A DNA stretch of 64,000 bases from an uncultured Pseudobdellovibrionaceae bacterium (GCA_964493095.1 CAZBNG010000001.1:22600-86599), one strand, 5' to 3'. Positions 42,001 to 51,000 are shown, numbered from the stretch's first letter. Numbers are program-made.

Positions 42001-45000
42001 TCCTCAAGGTGCCCTTCGACGGTTGTTAACTCCTGCGCTTGCTGGTTCACCATTCTTTGTGCGTAATCGATCAGGTTGATGGCGCCTACAATCTGCGTGG
42101 AAATGCTGGCATCGGGCCCAAGCAACGTTTCGCGGAACGCCAACGTGGGAATAGGGGGCGTTGCCGAAGCGTCGGTTTCAGACGCATAGCTGGTTGCCGT
42201 CACCGGGGAGTTATTTTGAATCGGGCCTGTACTGTAGGTTCCGAAAAGAGCGGAAACGATATTTACACCGTCGTCAATACTGGCGCGGGTGCTGCCCCCC
42301 GCGATACCTGTGGCCGCATAAGTTGCCCCGTTGGTTTTAAAAGAGCCGCCGACAATTTTCAGATCGCCGCCAAAATCCGGATTCGTGTAATCGTTTCCGG
42401 GGCGCAGCCGCAGGAAACCCGTATCTGTGCCCGCCGTGGCAAATTGGGACTCATCGACAGCCAGACCGGGAACGGCATTCAATTGTGCCACCAGTTCGGT
42501 GATCGTATCGTTAGGATCAATCGTGATACGGGTCAGCGTATTATTACCGACAGCAATATCAAAATACGGATCCGTAGCCTCTACCGTCTGCGGTGACATA
42601 CCAAGATAGGCAAAACCTGTTTCAGAAAGCCCTTCCGTACCCGCCGCTGCAATGGTGATATCGCTGGTTGCGGAAAAATTAAGCTCTCCGCCGGAGCCGA
42701 TACTAACCGTAGGGGCATAGCGGGCCACAGCAGGCGTACCGGTTATAATGGTGTCTATTTCATTCTGAATAAATGCCCGCAGTTGCTCGGCGGCGTTATC
42801 GATCGTTCCGCCACCGACAGGATCCACCGCACCGATTTCAAAAGCGCCACCCGCATCAAATGCGGCATCGCGCAAATCCACCGTAACCGTCTGTGTACCA
42901 ATCGCGAGATCGGGATCGGAAAAAGCAATTGTAAAACGATCCGTTTCAGACCCCGGAGACGTCCCGAAAGCGGTGGCGCTTCCCGCCGCAAGCATGGCGG
43001 CAACGCTGGTATATTGCGTCAGATCGGTATTACCGTGCATGTTATTCGTCGAGTAAAGCCCCAGCCATGTTTGCAGGTCGTCACCGCCTGTATTCAGCAG
43101 ATCGACCCCTGTTGTAGATTCAGCGGAATTAATGGCCTGCTGATAATTTAAATCGCCAAAAGTAAACTGCAGAACGCGGCGGATAACCTGATTTGAACCT
43201 GAAGATACCGATTCACCCGTTGTTCCCTGCTGCAAAAGCGTACTATCAAGTAAAATTGCCGCATTCACCTGGATATCAGAGGCAAAGCCTACATACGGAA
43301 CAGACGTGGCCGGCGGTCCGGCATCGGGATCAGGCGCCGTATCGGCGGGCACTTTACCGGTAGAATCGGTAAATAATTTCAGACCCTGGGCTTCAAAACG
43401 CATCGCCAGCTTATGCGCCAGCTCATCCAGCTGCGCCAACTGACGTGGAAATTTGTCATCCCGCAGATCAATAAGACCACCCAGCTTTCCATTGGGAGAC
43501 GTATCCGTAATATCAATAGCAGACGCCAGCGTTGAAGGATCGCCGTTAAACTGCTTGGGTACGACATAGATACCTTCTACGGAATCCGGATAATATGTCG
43601 TGGCGGCCAGCGGCTTGGCATTAAACATGAGCTTTCTTGCGTTCTCATCGGCAAGCTCCACACCCTGGTTCGTTTGCACGACCATGACGCCGTCGCCGCG
43701 TTTAAAAAAGCTTATTTCAATTAAATTGGATAATTCTTTAATAGCGGAATCACGGTCGTCTTCCAGCGCCGCCGTACTGCGACTCAGGTTCAGGCTGCTT
43801 TGAATCTGCTGGTTTGCCACGGCGATCCGGTTCAAAAGACTGTTAATATCGGTAACGGTCTGCTGCGCTTCCGTCTGGGCATCGTTACGAAGAGAGTTAA
43901 TCAGCGTTGCCAGATCATTAATTTTCGTAGATACGTCCTGCGCTTCATTGACAACGCTGGCCTGCAGAAAAATATCTCCGGGAGTGTCCGAAAGCGCGGA
44001 AAAAGAATCCTTCAGACGGGAAATTTCTGCCGCAATCGACAACTCTGCATCCGGCGGCCCGTGAAACTGCTCAACCCGGCTTAAATAGGACTGTTGAATG
44101 GTTGAAAAACCCACCGCGCTTACCTGTGTCCAGAGATCGCGCGAAAGGTTCAAACTGACGTTACGAACGATGGTCTCGCTCGCAACTCCCACTGTAAGCC
44201 CTTGAATCGATTGTGAAGTCTGCCCTACCAGCTTTCTCGTATAGCCGGGCGTGCTAACGTTCGCAACATTGTTGGAAATGTTGCTGATCTGCTGTTGTGC
44301 TACTCTCATGCCCGAAAGGGCGGCGTCCAGACTGGCTAAACTCATTTATGCTTCCTTGCCTTATTTTTCGGCTTTTTTGTTCTGAATGAACATATGCAAG
44401 GAAGATGCCAGAGCGCTCCGACACAGAATGTTTTTAGAAAAATAAAAAAATATTTGAAATCAAAAGATTATACAGCTGTTTTTTAAGCGCTATTTTATAG
44501 AGCTGTTTTGCACAGCCGTTTTCATCTCGCTGTTCGTGGAGGAAAGGCGTTGGGTCACGGCTTCCTCCACCATCATGGCGATCAGCATTTCACGGCGCAG
44601 GGAAGATTCATATGCATCGCGAGCCTGCATAAGCTGAATAGCCTGCATGGACACATCCATACGCTTTACGTTGGTGGGCTTGTCATAGAGATTGGTGTAA
44701 AAATCAGGGTTTTGCAGCATCTTTTTGCTTAAAACGTCCATTTGGGCATAGTAGCTGGGATTCTTGCCAAGCATTTTCGTTATTTCATCGTCGGAAAGGC
44801 CGAATTCCCGCATCATGGACTTCATGTGGGCGCCACCGCTTTTTTCCGCTAAATCATTAGGTTCTGCCGCTTTCATCGCCGCTATGCTTACAAAAGAATT
44901 ATGCGCTACGTTTTGCATCGCGATAACCTGCCTTATATCCATAAATCCCTTGTACTTGCTATCAAGCTCACCTTTAGGATTTTCAAAAGTGGAGGGCCCG

Positions 45001-48000: not shown

Positions 48001-51000
48001 TGGCCGGCTTATCATACAGATTGGCGTAAAAATCCGGACTTTGATAAATTTTCTGGGCCAGAATTTCGAGCTGGGCGTAATAGCTGGGGTTTTTACCCAT
48101 AACCTTGGTGATTTCCTTATCATCCATTCCCAGTTCCTTTAAAATCGCGCCCAGATATTTCCATGTCTGTGTGTCCGGCTGACTGTCAGGCCCCGAAGAA
48201 CCGGATGACTTCAAACCCACAATGGCATTAAAGGAATTTTCCGCCACGCTGCGTTTGGCGGCAACGGCACGCAGGGCCATATATTTTTTCTGGTTGTCCT
48301 GATCGTCCAGATACGCGCCGGTAAGACGTTTTATAACATTGTGCCCGTACAGGTTATTGGCGAGGGCGATAATATCTTCTTCCTGACTGCCCTCCTTAAT
48401 TTCGCCGTCCGTAAAATTCACGCTGAGCGTATGTGGCTCCTCAATCAGGCGTGTAAAATCAACGTCTATATTGCGTTTTTCCGGATCACTGCCGCCTGTT
48501 TTACCACAGGCACCCTCAAGACCCGTCCCCGGGACATCTTTAACCCATTGATTATCCTTGGGGTCGCAGTATTTGCCGACAAATTGCCGCCAGCGCGCGC
48601 CTTTATCGGTATCCGCGTTGGTTGCCGCAACGCCGCTCCTGCCAAGATGCCGCGCCATGGCACGCTGGCTTAACGCCAGAGCATTAAACCGGGAGAGCGA
48701 TTCGCTGTGGGCCAGGCTGCGCACGTTGGTTCCGAACCAGCAAAAATCGTCACTGGGCTGATAATCCTTATGCGCTTCAGCCTGTAATTCCTGCAGGGTT
48801 CTTTGCGTATCAAGCTGGTTTTTGGCATCAAAGAAGGTGCCGACCGTGAATATCTGTTGCATACCGACGGCGGAAAGCTGCTCCGTCATTTTCATCAAAG
48901 CAGGCAGGAAATTTTCCAAGAAAAATGTTTTATACAGGAACGTGTCACGGTGCTTGTTAAATTCTTCCGAAGTGTGTTGGCTGATGAAATACTCGCCGGC
49001 CGCATGAAATTGCTCGATTACCGTTTTTGCTCTTTTTGTGTCTTCCGGATCGCATGGGCCGCAGGCCAGACCGCCGCCACCACCCCCGCCAGCGCAGGCC
49101 GCGCCGCCGCTACCCTCCATGCCGCCATTGGGACCGTCTCCCGGCCCGCCGGAATCACCGCCGCCTCCACCTCCGTCCGCGCCGCCGCCGCTCTCCTCGG
49201 CATAAGCGCGAAAAACCGGTATGGTTGAAAAGGAAACACACAGAACGGCGAGCAAAACGCCGACAAAACAGCCCTTTATAAACAGCCTGCCCGCCCCGTT
49301 AATCATTAAAAAACCCGTGCCGAAGTTATTATTATCATTGTCCTTTTATCATACCCCAAAAACGGACATTTTCGTAACCTCTTTCATTTTAACACAAGAA
49401 ACCGGCAAAAGGCACGTTTCAATCGTTATTCTTTGTGATTTGGAACGATTGGCTTTTCAAGAGTCTCAATTTACGGTAAACAGAAAGGATATACGTCTTC
49501 AAAACACTGCGCTTCAAATATGACCGATAAAAAATCAAAAACGCCGGAAAATCAGGACGCTGCAAAAACTGCGCAGGATACGGCCGCGACAAACGGTAAC
49601 GATCTGGGCGGGCTTGGCAAGGTCAATATCCGCAATGAGTTTTACCGCGACGGCTACCGCACTCTTCTGAAACTGAGCGTTTTACAAGGACTTGTCACAC
49701 TGGGGCTTATCGCGGCAATGTTTTTCGTGGTTGCCGTACACCAACCGGAAAACCGTTACTTTGCGACCACGGAAGACGGCCGGCTCGTGCCCATGGTGCC
49801 GCTAAACCAGCCGAATTTGAGCACTCCGGCCCTGATGTCATGGGTGGCACAAGCGACAACCGAAGTAATGACCTTTGGTTTCAATGACTATCGCCGCCGT
49901 TTCCAGACCGCGTCGCGCAATTTCACCCGCCGCGGCTGGGAAAGCTTCAGCACAGCGTTGCAAAAATCTCGTATTATCGAGCTCGTTGAAACAAAACAGC
50001 AAGTTGTAACCGCCACCCCGCAAGGCGCACCGATTCTGCAATCCGAAGGACTATACGCGGGGCGTTATCAATGGGTTGTTCAAATTCCCATGGTTCTGAC
50101 TTATCAGTCCGGCAGCAGTACCCGCAGCGACAGCCTGCTGGTTACACTGGTTGTCGTACGCCGCCCACGCCTTGAAAGCCCGAACGGCGTAGGGATCGAA
50201 CAATGGATCGCCGTACCGCGCTAGCAATATCCATTTAAAAATTTTGCCGGAAATGCCGGGGGAAGCCTGTGTGTTATTTTCACTTTTTCCTGATTGAAGG
50301 ATGACAGTCCTTTTTTTTATCGATATTCTTTGCGTATCTGCAGATACCCTTACTTTCGGATGGTTTTCATTTCCCATGCGTCTATTCAAATTCTATAGTT
50401 CCGTAACGAACCGTATTCTTTTGACAGCCGCTGTTGTGTTTGTGCTAACCGCTCCGATTGCGTCCAGTGCAATGGCACAGACGCCCCCGCCCCCTAATCT
50501 GCCTGGCAGCGCACAAACGCAAGACCAGAATCAGAAGAACCCACAAAGTCTTCCACCGGCAACCACCCAAAACAGCGCATCGGACAAAGAACTGTCCGAA
50601 ATGCTCGGAACGGCGGAAAGTAAGGAGGATATCGAGGAAAAAGTGCGCGAGGACGCTTTTGATGCCGCGCTTCAGGGGCTGCTCCCGCTAAAGCCGCTCG
50701 AAATCCGCAAACTGCTGGAACATTTCGACCGCACCCAGGAATCCGTAGAGGTTCCCGTTTACCCATCGCCCAAACCTGAGGTCACCGTGCAAACCCTTTC
50801 TCTGGACCCGGGCTCCACGCCAGCCGTTATTAAGGTGGCTTACGGTCATGTCACCACGCTCAATATGCTGGACCTGTCCGGCGAGCCCTGGCCGATTGAA
50901 GATATCAGCTGGGCCGGTAATTTCGAGGTTATTGAAGGCGGGGCCAACGAAGGCTCCCACATCCTGCGCATTTCCCCGGAAAGCGAGTTTGCACAGGGCA

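What the first reader, a model, noticed from the sequence alone, without database searches (positions are those of the whole stretch)
44490..49306. Three tandem, translationally linked paralogs of a secreted Cys-containing protein between flgK and icmL
Three consecutive minus-strand ORFs (487, 522 and 588 aa) each begin with a signal or anchor-like hydrophobic segment. Each then has a different N-terminal region:
- a poly-Gly tract in paralog C;
- a Gly/Pro-rich tract in paralog B;
- an extra ~200-aa beta-rich region in paralog A.

They then align over ~350 aa. One block reads:
- LMKMTEQLSVQALQQMQMIGSFFDANQILQSQRAFQKTQAEAVKDYHPSEEMC
- MMMMADQLSSVAMQQVQIFGSFMDAQNQLETQRLFQTMQAQAHKDYHPSTGMC
- LMKMTEQLSAVGMQQIFTVGTFFDAKNQLDTQRTLQELQAEAHKDYQPSDDFC

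Another reads GKNPSYYAQMDVLSKKMLQNPDFYTNLYDKPTNVKR / GENPSYYAQMEILTKKLYQNPDFYTNLYDKPANVER / GKNPSYYAQLEILAQKIYQSPDFYANLYDKPANVER. About five Cys positions are conserved. The stop of B overlaps the start of A (TAATG at 46254-46258).

I cannot assign the family confidently. The one periplasmic core component missing from this locus is IcmX (IncI TraW). The C-terminal amphipathic helix pattern vaguely recalls IcmX, so IcmX-like is a hypothesis. If correct, a diversified triplication is unusual. If wrong, this is an uncharacterised secreted family tied to a T4BSS.
Basis: partly seen in the sequence, partly recalled or inferred. Interest (0 to 1): 0.72.

Follow-up and report, generated by a model that had tools for sequence, protein, structure and literature searches.

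The report
Tandem IcmX/TraW-like secretion-channel cap genes
The three neighbouring genes are diverged copies of the TraW/IcmX (VirB5-class) protein that caps the central channel of a type IVB secretion machine, and arrays of 2-5 such copies (usually 3-5) occur throughout the predatory Micavibrio lineage, in a secretion system that the original Micavibrio genome paper did not report.

Summary
Three co-directional minus-strand genes (C 47843-49306, B 46256-47824, A 44490-46256) each encode one N-terminal Sec-type hydrophobic segment, a variable N-terminal region and a shared ~350-390 aa all-helical core with three invariant Cys.

- A 210-sequence family profile matches the TraW-position protein family of alphaproteobacterial I-type plasmids. 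HHalign gives 95.9 %, E 5e-9, near full length; shuffled controls reach E >= 0.03.
- That plasmid family matches bona fide IncI TraW (94.9 %, E 4.5e-8).
- The three-Cys spacing of IncI TraW (59/14) recurs here (59/13).
- The best PDB fold match of the paralog B model is IcmX in the DotA-IcmX protochannel (9NGY; prob 0.87, but E only 0.05).

The trio is not peculiar to this genome. In 48 complete Micavibrio-lineage loci the array has 5 (29), 4 (6), 3 (12) or 2 (1) genes, built from three ancient types. It almost always sits next to icmL.

flgK-flgL lies inside the T4BSS locus but has its own sigma-54 promoter (57 of 57 loci).

Verdict: a new variant of a known kind, namely multi-paralog IcmX/TraW. 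Whether the copies form a mixed pentamer is untested.

The parts
47843..49306 (-). Paralog C (487 aa). It has a Sec-type signal (…FRAYA|EESGG), a poly-Gly/Cys-containing linker and a TraW/IcmX-like helical core. It is first in the array and maps to positions 1-2 of the 5-gene arrays.
46256..47824 (-). Paralog B (522 aa from GTG). It has a K/R-rich n-region plus a hydrophobic segment, a Gly/Pro-rich linker, a CxxC motif and then the helical core. Modelled helices are 128-205, 209-244, 361-389 and 454-504. It maps to positions 3-4 of the 5-gene arrays.
44490..46256 (-). Paralog A (588 aa). It has an N-terminal hydrophobic helix (2-27), a beta-sandwich module, and then the same helical core (helices 227-290, 294-328 … 527-585). 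This type is always the last gene of the array (a position-locked orthogroup). Its ATG overlaps the stop of B by one base.
45684..46109 (-). N-terminal beta-sandwich region of paralog A (residues 50-191; pLDDT mostly ~76-95). Its fold resembles the tandem Ig-like extender repeats of giant bacterial adhesins.
   Evidence: 6XI3 E 6e-4 prob 1.00; 4P99, 5IRB, 2YN3
46313..47443 (-). Conserved TraW/IcmX-like core of paralog B (residues 128-504). It comprises a long N-helix ending in KDYHPS..MC, a Cys-containing extended domain, and C-terminal helices carrying PSYYAQME…YQNPDFYTNLYDKPANVER.
49307..49519 (.). Divergent intergenic region between the array (paralog C) and icmL. It is the presumed promoter region for both. 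No sigma-54 motif occurs here.
49520..50224 (+). icmL/dotI, transcribed divergently from the array. It is adjacent to the array in 59 of 63 testable loci.
50301..60733 (+). T4BSS operon: icmK/dotH, icmE/dotG, icmG/dotF-like, a traQ/icmC-like 577-aa gene, orf134, icmJ/dotN and icmB/dotO.
33390..40586 (+). The other arm of the T4BSS locus. It holds a DsbG-like disulfide isomerase, an unknown 402-aa gene, an SLT transglycosylase, dotD, dotC, dotB, an icmT-like ORF (38738-39097) and a TcpQ-domain protein.
44395..44410 (-). Sigma-54 -24/-12 promoter motif TGGCATCTTCCTTGCA upstream of flgK. It makes flgK-flgL a separate transcription unit downstream of paralog A. It is the only such motif in the 64-kb window.
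40600..44345 (-). flgK (41823-44345) and flgL (40600-41805). These are genuine flagellar hook-associated genes nested inside the T4BSS locus. They are not part of the TraW/IcmX-like family.

Best explanation
A, B and C are three anciently diverged paralogs of the TraW/IcmX (VirB5-class) subunit of a chromosomal type IVB secretion system in a Micavibrio-like predatory alphaproteobacterium.

**Shown**
- They are homologous to plasmid TraW.
- They have the IcmX/VirB5 layout: a signal, a long N-helix, a Cys-containing extended domain and C-terminal helices.
- They are encoded in a tight array (18-nt gap, then a 1-base overlap), divergent from icmL, inside the T4BSS locus.

**Inferred from what is known of IcmX, TraW and VirB5**
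1. After Sec export the proteins fold in the periplasm. The locus-encoded DsbG-like protein could assist disulfide formation.
2. They oligomerise, as a pentamer in characterised relatives, on top of a DotA/TraY-type channel inside the DotG cage.
3. There they form the distal cap of the translocation channel. The cap is pushed outward on contact with a target cell.

The variable N-terminal modules lie just before the N-helix. Examples are the Ig-like sandwich in A, and in relatives a GDSL lipase, LRRs or up to ~700 aa of unknown sequence. They would therefore be placed to act at or near the target (prey) surface.

Three non-redundant types are retained across the lineage. This argues that the copies do different jobs, either as subunits of one mixed cap or as alternative caps.
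For: **Homology**
- The diverse family profile (210 core sequences) matches the Shinella-type TraW-position family. HHalign gives prob 95.9 %, E 5.4e-9, with 302 collinear columns covering 73-413 of 434 and 55-366 of 394.
- Forty-one reversed, shuffled or block-shuffled controls reach a score of at most 24.7 (E >= 0.03), against 73.7 for the real pair.
- That family matches an 8-sequence profile of annotated TraW from IncI/K/L-M and related plasmids: prob 94.9 %, E 4.5e-8.
- The single Shinella protein hits family members in 4 loci by phmmer, best E 2.3e-7.
- Cys spacing: TraW has C108-C167-C181; B has C212-C271-C284. These Cys are aligned to each other.

**Fold**
- The AF2 model of B has pLDDT 76.7 overall and 85-94 in the core, and is all-alpha with very long N- and C-terminal helices.
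- Its best hit among 350,542 PDB chains is 9ngy_AP1, prob 0.87.
- DotA is chain FP1 of that entry, so AP1 is IcmX.

**Equivalence in the literature.** TraW(R64) = IcmX = VirB5: stalk, periplasmic, pentamer.

**Context**
- Synteny is conserved in ~70 loci.
- icmL is adjacent in 59 of 63 loci, and T4BSS genes occur in 65 of 72 loci. The rest are short contigs.
- No other TraW/IcmX candidate was found in the window.

**Export.** Each protein has a single N-terminal hydrophobic segment, and a DsbG-like gene lies in the locus.
Against: - No sequence method links the family to Legionella IcmX itself.
- The direct comparison with the IncI TraW profile is not significant, E 0.03, so the homology is transitive through one intermediate family.
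- The Foldseek hit is weak (E 0.052, TM 0.21-0.25, rmsd 10 A).
- IcmX is not among the top 50 hits for the model of A, where beta-domain hits dominate.
- The expected partner DotA/TraY, and TraX, are absent from the window and from +/-10 kb in all 75 loci. The IncI gene order traW-traX-traY is therefore not kept.
- Pfam and NCBIfam give no hit.
- A's long hydrophobic N-terminus could be an uncleaved membrane anchor. That would place its Ig-like module near the inner membrane and not at the tip.
- Oligomeric state, location and function are all untested.
Confidence: 0.78

Rival explanations
1. The proteins descend from TraW but no longer act as the channel cap. On this view they are Sec-exported periplasmic or surface accessory proteins or adhesins of the T4BSS, or released factors. 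The real IcmX function would be supplied by another gene next to dotA elsewhere in the genome.
For: - DotA/TraY and TraX are not near the array in any locus.
- N-terminal fusions to adhesin-like Ig repeats, LRR and a GDSL lipase would suit surface or enzymatic roles.
- IcmX itself is known to be released in a truncated form.
Against: - Core conservation extends over the whole TraW-like region in all paralogs, including the N- and C-terminal helices that build the pentamer in IcmX.
- No other TraW-like gene was detected in the window or the loci.
- The array is kept beside icmL in 59 of 63 loci.
Confidence: 0.12
2. The proteins are flagellar accessory proteins, because they lie immediately upstream of flgK-flgL and point the same way.
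For: - The gene order C>B>A>flgK>flgL is co-directional here and in 53 of 63 loci.
Against: - flgK has its own sigma-54 promoter in 57 of 57 loci, and the motif does not precede the array.
- Three loci (L057, L074, L075) have the array followed directly by T4BSS genes with no flgKL, and one (L059) has flgKL inverted.
- The proteins carry Sec signals, whereas flagellar axial proteins use the flagellar export apparatus.
- They are homologous to TraW.
Confidence: 0.03
3. This is an unrelated, uncharacterised secreted helical family. Its resemblance to TraW/IcmX would then be convergent, or an artefact of comparing long helices.
For: - Pfam, NCBIfam and PDB sequence searches are all negative.
- Foldseek TM-scores are low.
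- Long helical proteins readily give spurious fold matches; ranks 2-50 are such matches.
Against: - The HHalign match is near full-length and collinear. It includes non-helical Cys-containing motifs (…DY.PS..C / …RYDPA.S.C; NPDFY…P.NV.R / NPDWH…PEAV.RE) and exceeds all 41 controls by about 50 score units.
- There is a direct phmmer hit.
- The Cys spacing is identical to that of IncI TraW.
- The family lies in a T4BSS locus.
Confidence: 0.05

Closest known systems
TraW of I-type (MPF_I) conjugative plasmids: IncI1 R64-type TraW and the TraW-position protein of alphaproteobacterial plasmids (e.g. Shinella sumterensis NZ_CP132309, precomputed Pfam PF28212)
   Same: - Homologous by profile-profile comparison and by phmmer.
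- Similar core size, about 370-400 aa.
- Signal peptide and three conserved Cys with the same spacing.
- C-terminal NPDW/F…P..V.RE motif.
- Encoded inside a T4BSS gene cluster that also carries a thioredoxin-fold/DsbG-like gene.
   Different: - The plasmid genes are single-copy, sit in the order traU-traV-traW-traX-traY, and (Shinella type) are lipoproteins with an AGC lipobox.
- Here there are 2-5 tandem copies (usually 3-5), placed between icmL and the dotB arm and away from any traY/dotA. They have no lipobox and carry variable N-terminal extensions.
IcmX of the Legionella Dot/Icm T4BSS (PDB 9NGY)
   Same: - Best PDB fold match for paralog B.
- Same layout of signal, N-helix, extended domain and C-terminal helices.
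- Similar length (466 aa).
- Non-lipoprotein periplasmic protein of a T4BSS.
   Different: - No detectable sequence similarity.
- IcmX is single-copy and encoded near dotA; this is my own knowledge of the Legionella icmX/dotA region and was not tested here.
- The Micavibrio-lineage proteins occur as multi-gene arrays with N-terminal add-on modules.
Amplified trwJ (VirB5) genes of the Bartonella Trw type IVA system (from my own knowledge; not examined here)
   Same: Tandem multiplication and diversification of the VirB5-class subunit of a T4SS. In Bartonella this is thought to diversify the contact with target cells.
   Different: - Bartonella Trw is a type IVA, pilus-forming system, and its copies are lineage-specific amplifications.
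- Here the system is type IVB, and the three paralog types are ancient, position-locked and retained across a whole order-level lineage, with no sign of recent gene conversion.
Bacteria-killing T4BSS of Pseudomonas putida IsoF (PMC9519443, listed)
   Same: A chromosomal Dot/Icm-like T4BSS used against other bacteria. This is the most plausible functional setting for a T4BSS in an obligate bacterial predator.
   Different: The function of the Micavibrio-lineage system is unknown. I did not compare the IsoF gene set, and I know of no multi-copy IcmX/TraW there.

Membership tests
TraW/IcmX (VirB5-class) T4BSS subunit | Detectable sequence homology to established TraW proteins | tested here: met
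   - Family profile vs the Shinella-type TraW-position family: 95.9 %, E 5.4e-9, with controls.
- That family vs annotated IncI/K/L-M TraW: 94.9 %, E 4.5e-8.
- Direct phmmer E 2.3e-7.
- The direct comparison of the family with the IncI TraW profile is not significant (E 0.03), so the link is transitive.
TraW/IcmX (VirB5-class) T4BSS subunit | Architecture: signal peptide, long N-terminal helix, extended middle domain, two long C-terminal helices | tested here: met
   - AF2 models of B and A: helices 128-205 / 209-244, a mixed middle region, and a C-terminal helix 454-504 in B. A has the same plan.
- Each protein has a single N-terminal hydrophobic segment.
TraW/IcmX (VirB5-class) T4BSS subunit | Fold similarity to a solved member (IcmX, 9NGY) | tested here: inconclusive
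   IcmX is the top hit of 350,542 chains with prob 0.87, but E = 0.052 and TM 0.21-0.25. It is not in the top 50 for model A, where beta-domain hits dominate. The chain identity follows.
TraW/IcmX (VirB5-class) T4BSS subunit | Sequence similarity to Legionella IcmX | tested here: not met
   No PDB sequence hit at E <= 10 with three family profiles or with the TraW profiles. Bona fide TraW fails this test as well, so it does not discriminate.
TraW/IcmX (VirB5-class) T4BSS subunit | Encoded within a type IVB secretion/conjugation gene cluster | tested here: met
   The array is flanked by icmL/K/E/G/J/B on one side and dotB/C/D on the other. This is conserved in ~70 loci.
TraW/IcmX (VirB5-class) T4BSS subunit | Gene neighbourhood with the VirB6-class partner (traW-traX-traY / icmX near dotA) | tested here: not met
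   No TraY/DotA or TraX homolog was found in the window or within +/-10 kb in 75 loci. The rest of the genomes could not be searched.
TraW/IcmX (VirB5-class) T4BSS subunit | Conserved Cys triad of IncI TraW | tested here: met
   TraW has C108/C167/C181 (spacing 59, 14; conserved in 8 TraW sequences). B has C212/C271/C284 (59, 13), A has 297/356/369, and C has 189/247/267.
TraW/IcmX (VirB5-class) T4BSS subunit | Forms a pentamer on the DotA/VirB6 pentamer at the machine's central axis | not testable with these tools
   Only monomer prediction was available. This needs multimer modelling, cryo-ET or biochemistry.
Flagellar proteins (considered because of the flgK-flgL neighbours) | Co-regulation or co-occurrence with flagellar genes, and export without a Sec signal | tested here: not met
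   - The sigma-54 promoter precedes flgK only.
- Arrays exist without flgKL (L057, L074, L075).
- The proteins have Sec-type N-termini.

The most novel reading that the evidence does not exclude
The three ancient paralog types build one asymmetric, mixed pentameric cap on the T4BSS channel. Its composition would be 2 C-type, 2 B-type and 1 A-type subunit. In the modal 5-gene arrays each position would have its own gene; in 3-gene genomes such as this one, C and B would each be used twice.

The single A subunit and the other N-terminal add-ons (Ig-like adhesin repeats, LRR, GDSL lipase) would form the device that recognises and breaches the prey envelope. This would make the T4BSS the long-sought 'leeching' apparatus of epibiotic Micavibrio predators.
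Probability: 0.15. Interest if true: 0.88.

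Novelty: new variant of a known kind. Interest (0 to 1): 0.64.

Why it matters
1. **It gives a name and a testable role to a large family.** The family has at least 1,286 clusters at 50 % identity. Every source name seen is 'hypothetical protein', apart from one domain-derived label for a fusion protein (leucine-rich repeat), and there is no Pfam or NCBIfam model.
2. **It reveals a conserved chromosomal Dot/Icm-like T4BSS across the Micavibrio lineage.** This includes a complete M. aeruginosavorus genome, although the 2011 genome paper reported no type IV secretion system. How these epibiotic predators kill and drain their prey is unresolved, and a contact-dependent injection machine is an obvious candidate.
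3. **It offers a natural experiment.** IcmX/VirB5 was only recently shown to be the pentameric cap or gate of the T4SS channel. A lineage that keeps three to five diverged copies, some with adhesin-like or enzymatic modules in front of the pore-forming helix, can show how the cap is built and how it meets the target membrane.

Tried and rejected
- **Pfam and NCBIfam on A/B/C:** only sub-threshold noise.
- **PDB sequence searches:** profiles A1, A3, A5 and A4, and TraW alone, found no IcmX or VirB5 hit.
- **tblastn of B against 72,556 plasmids:** no match.
- **Single-sequence HHalign to IncI TraW and Shinella TraW:** suggestive motifs only. The narrow profile A2 vs A3 gave only 32 %. Significance appeared only with the diverse 210-sequence profile.
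- **The neighbouring unknown 402-aa protein as an alternative IcmX/TraW:** no similarity to the family or to the PDB.
- **The exhaustive representative search:** it showed family size and length range, but its listed top 150 are all close members, so the remote tail could not be inspected.
- **Walking along the source contig with the look-up of encoding contigs:** four look-ups were 'not on record'.
- **RNA-seq supplement of the 2011 paper:** the rows for the genes next to GMV2433 are missing from the held, truncated file.
- **Pfam accession PF28212:** this accession is carried by the Shinella-type family but is not in the local Pfam copy, so its name is unknown.
- **dN/dS among A, B and C:** not attempted. 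At 36-40 % protein identity and 60-76 % DNA identity even in the best blocks, synonymous sites are saturated.
- **Shufflon or gene-conversion idea:** rejected. There are no long identical tracts and no meaningful inverted repeats.

Full report
**1. The observation**

- They align over about 350 aa with 36-37 % identity.
- A vs C gives BLASTP E = 5e-83.
- The quoted peptide blocks are present.
- Each protein has exactly one hydrophobic segment, at the N-terminus after basic residues. That is the pattern of a Sec signal or signal anchor.
- Three Cys are invariant in the core: B 212/271/284, A 297/356/369, C 189/247/267. An upstream pair is CxxC in B and C.
- The B stop and the A start share one base (…CCGTAATGAGG…). 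C and B are 18 nt apart.
- DNA identity between copies is only 60-76 %, even in the conserved blocks. There are no long identical tracts and no meaningful inverted repeats, so the copies are old and are not being homogenised or switched.

**2. Context in the window**

The array sits in the middle of a Dot/Icm-like type IVB locus.

- One arm (+ strand, 33390-40586) holds a DsbG-like gene, an unknown 402-aa gene, SLT, dotD, dotC, dotB, an icmT-like ORF and a TcpQ-domain protein.
- The other arm (+ strand, 49520-60733) holds icmL, icmK, icmE, an icmG-like gene, a traQ/icmC-like gene, orf134, icmJ and icmB.
- Between the arms, on the minus strand, lie C, B, A, flgK and flgL.
- No DotA/TraY, TraX, TraV or TrbA homolog was detected in the window.

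**3. The family elsewhere**

Family size and labelling:
- A word-indexed search found at least 1,784 relatives. Every source name in the top 120 is 'hypothetical protein', except one fusion protein labelled 'leucine-rich repeat domain-containing protein'. All named sources are Micavibrio, Alphaproteobacteria or Rhodospirillales MAGs, or 'Bdellovibrionales'.
- NCBI files Micavibrio under Pseudobdellovibrionaceae, which explains the Bdellovibrionales-type labels.
- An exhaustive HMMER search of 1.84 billion representatives found 1,286 clusters at E <= 1e-3. Lengths run from 347 to 1,070 aa. The conserved part is always the C-terminal ~390 aa, so the N-terminus is a variable add-on.

Synteny:
- Seventy-one genome loci were fetched, including a complete M. 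aeruginosavorus chromosome (L037).
- Scoring their ORFs with the window's own proteins shows near-universal synteny: icmL< [family array]> flgK> flgL> <TcpQ <icmT <dotB <dotC <dotD <SLT <unk402 <DsbG.
- icmL is adjacent to the array in 59 of 63 loci with enough flank.
- flgK follows the array in 53 of 63. Three loci (L057, L074, L075) have the array followed directly by T4BSS genes, and one (L059) has flgKL inverted.
- The family therefore travels with the T4BSS and not with the flagellar genes.

Array size and paralog age:
- Among 48 complete loci the array has 5 genes in 29, 4 in 6, 3 in 12 and 2 in 1.
- Position in the array tracks relatedness. The last gene is a distinct orthogroup (the A-type, with the long N-terminal extension). 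The window's C best matches positions 1-2 of the 5-gene arrays, and B best matches positions 3-4.
- So there are three ancient types, with C and B each doubled in the 5-gene lineages.
- Paralog A has about 43 orthologs of 555-643 aa, most covering at least 81 % of it, so its extra domain is conserved.

**4. What the proteins are**

Pfam, NCBIfam and PDB sequence searches are negative.

*Structure.*
- The AF2 model of B has mean pLDDT 76.7 and 85-94 through the core. It is all-alpha. A 78-residue helix (128-205) pairs with 209-244, a mixed middle region follows, and a long terminal helix spans 454-504.
- Against 350,542 PDB chains the best match is 9ngy_AP1 (prob 0.87, E 0.052, TM 0.21/0.25). 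Everything else has E > 0.6 and is generic long-helix matter.
- 9NGY is the in-situ DotA-IcmX protochannel, and DotA is chain FP1 (1,048 aa). The 417-residue chain AP1 is therefore IcmX.
- The paper describes IcmX as signal peptide + N-helix + extended domain (90-290) + two C-terminal helices, VirB5-like, forming a pentamer on the DotA pentamer. That is the layout of the models here.

*Sequence.*
- In I-type plasmids the gene order is traU-traV-traW-traX-traY. An alphaproteobacterial Shinella plasmid has the same order, with an unnamed 367-aa gene in the traW slot.
- That gene's family (35 sequences, lipoproteins, one UniRef entry named TraW) was collected.
- With the narrow B-dominated profile, HHalign gave a collinear 293-column match, but only 32 % probability.
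- With a diverse 210-sequence core profile drawn from all array positions it gave 95.9 %, E 5.4e-9, and 302 collinear columns spanning nearly the whole of both families.
- Reversed, column-shuffled and block-shuffled versions of the target never exceeded score 24.7 (E >= 0.03), against 73.7 for the real pair.
- The aligned signatures are not mere helices: …QLSAY…DAAQ..TIR.RQ.ARA.AEGRYDPA.SaC aligns with …QLSAV.MQQ…F.DAK.QLETQR..Q…A.AHKDYHPS..MC, and VS.LQA.DIFV.SRFANPDWHQ.LA.MSPEAV.RE aligns with PSYYAQMEVLTKKIYQNPDFYTNLYDKPANV.RK.
- The Shinella-type family matches a profile of eight annotated TraW proteins (IncI1, IncK2/Z, IncI1/B/O, IncFII-associated MPF_I, Pseudomonas, Serratia, IncL/M, Janthinobacterium) at 94.9 %, E 4.5e-8.
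- The single Shinella protein finds family members in four loci by plain phmmer, best E 2.3e-7.
- The three mature-region Cys of IncI TraW are spaced 59 and 14 residues apart. Those of B are spaced 59 and 13, and they align to each other.
- A 2025 review table lists R64 TraW, IcmX, TrwJ, TrbJ and VirB5 as one component (stalk/pilus, periplasm, pentamer), and TraY/DotA as the VirB6 component.

*Limits.*
- The direct comparison of the family with the IncI TraW profile is not significant.
- No sequence method reaches Legionella IcmX. Bona fide TraW does not reach it either.
- The Foldseek statistics are weak.
- The partner gene is not nearby.

**5. The N-terminal add-ons**

- The model of A shows an N-terminal helix (2-27), then a confident beta-sandwich region (50-191; 10-residue-block pLDDT mostly ~76-95), and then the same helical core.
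- Its best PDB matches are tandem Ig-like extender repeats of giant adhesins: 6XI3 (prob 1.00, E 6e-4), 4P99, 5IRB and SiiE 2YN3.
- Among ten long family members, one carries a GDSL lipase/acylhydrolase domain (P0162, 38 bits, above the cutoff) and one carries LRRs (P0037). The other eight match nothing in Pfam.
- In IcmX the N-terminal helices of the five protomers form the pore-like bundle of the cap. Modules fused in front of that helix would lie at that end of the assembly. This is an inference. If A's hydrophobic N-terminus is an uncleaved anchor, the geometry would be different.

**6. How it most likely works**

*Shown:* homology to TraW, the IcmX-like plan, Sec-type N-termini, tight operon structure, and strict linkage to a T4BSS.

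*Inferred from the characterised relatives:*
1. The proteins are exported by Sec and oxidised in the periplasm. The locus encodes a DsbG-like isomerase, and I-type plasmids also carry thioredoxin-fold genes.
2. They assemble as the distal cap of the translocation channel, on a DotA-type base inside the DotG cage.
3. In Legionella this cap keeps the channel closed and is driven outward on contact with the target.

Three types are retained for the whole history of the lineage, in a fixed order and without gene conversion. This argues for non-redundant roles.

*Two sub-models remain open.*
- A mixed oligomer. The 2+2+1 make-up of the modal 5-gene array is suggestive, given a pentameric relative. 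However, arrays of 2 and 4 genes also exist.
- Alternative caps on different machines.

I could not test either sub-model.

**7. The flagellar genes**

- flgK and flgL have normal flagellar domains.
- Upstream of flgK lies TGGCATCTTCCTTGCA, a sigma-54 -24/-12 motif with canonical spacing.
- The same motif precedes flgK in 57 of 57 loci, against a background of 0.013 per 450 nt. It is unique in the 64-kb window and does not precede the array.
- M. aeruginosavorus ARL-13 has one annotated FlgK (GMV2433), far from its other flagellar clusters.
- So the nested flgK-flgL is the genuine flagellar pair under its own promoter. Why it is kept inside the T4BSS locus is unexplained.

**8. Novelty**

- Searches of the held literature found no paper linking Micavibrio with T4BSS genes. 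This is not proof of absence.
- Multiplication of the VirB5-class subunit is known for the Bartonella Trw type IVA system (my own knowledge). I know of no multi-paralog IcmX/TraW in a type IVB system.
- I therefore rate this a new variant of a known kind. It is of real interest to T4SS and bacterial-predation researchers, but it is not a new category.

Noticed in passing
window 40600-44410 (-); loci L001-L073: flgK-flgL, apparently the only flgK of the genome in M. aeruginosavorus ARL-13 (GMV2433), is nested inside the T4BSS locus across the Micavibrio lineage. A sigma-54 -24/-12 motif precedes flgK in 57 of 57 loci. The reason for this conserved nesting is unexplained. In L059 the pair is inverted, and in L057, L074 and L075 it is absent.
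   Followed up: yes
window 33390-60733; L037 (M. aeruginosavorus HCB189, NZ_CP195303): A Dot/Icm-like T4BSS (dotB/C/D and icmB/E/G/J/K/L/T homologs) is chromosomal and syntenic across the Micavibrio lineage. The 2011 ARL-13 genome paper stated there was no evidence for a type IV secretion system. DotA/TraY and the coupling-protein genes were not found in the locus.
   Followed up: partly
window 33390-36004 (+): A DsbG-like thiol:disulfide interchange protein, an unknown 402-aa protein (no Pfam, NCBIfam or PDB hit) and a small SLT transglycosylase form a conserved end of the T4BSS locus in many genomes.
   Followed up: partly
window 39183-40586 (+): A 467-aa protein with a long Pro/Ser/Ala-rich low-complexity N-terminal part and a C-terminal TcpQ domain (E 1e-13) is conserved between flgL and icmT/dotB. 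Its role in a T4BSS is unclear.
   Followed up: no
window 54612-56345 (+): A 577-aa protein has a C-terminal ~170 aa that matches IncI TraQ (IcmC/DotE-like). Its ~400-aa N-terminal extension gives only a weak holin-like (transmembrane) hit. The unusually long form is conserved in related loci.
   Followed up: no
P0162 (920 aa) and P0037 (824 aa), family members from other metagenomes/genomes: One family member carries an N-terminal GDSL lipase/acylhydrolase domain and another carries LRRs in front of the TraW/IcmX-like core. Most other long extensions (up to ~700 aa) match no Pfam family.
   Followed up: partly
window 30098-31156 (-): A sigma-54 activator (AAA+ and Fis-type HTH domains, 352 aa, no receiver domain detected) lies about 2 kb from the T4BSS locus. 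It is a candidate regulator of the flgK sigma-54 promoter.
   Followed up: no
window 1-6000: A low-GC stretch (38-43 % against ~52 % elsewhere) holds an AbiV/HEPN-like 502-aa gene (3648-5156, -) and ORFs with no Pfam hits. It may be a small defence island.
   Followed up: no
L037 9722-12285 (+): The cultured species M. aeruginosavorus has only two family genes (448 and 401 aa), and its last gene lacks the Ig-like extension. This makes it the simplest system for genetics.
   Followed up: partly
L074 9679-14407; L075 5577-10420: Two divergent marine Micavibrio-like MAGs have four much more diverged family genes (23-27 % identity to paralog A in their best matching segment, partial HMM coverage) and no flgKL or TcpQ gene in the locus. 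They may represent an older or alternative form of the locus.
   Followed up: no
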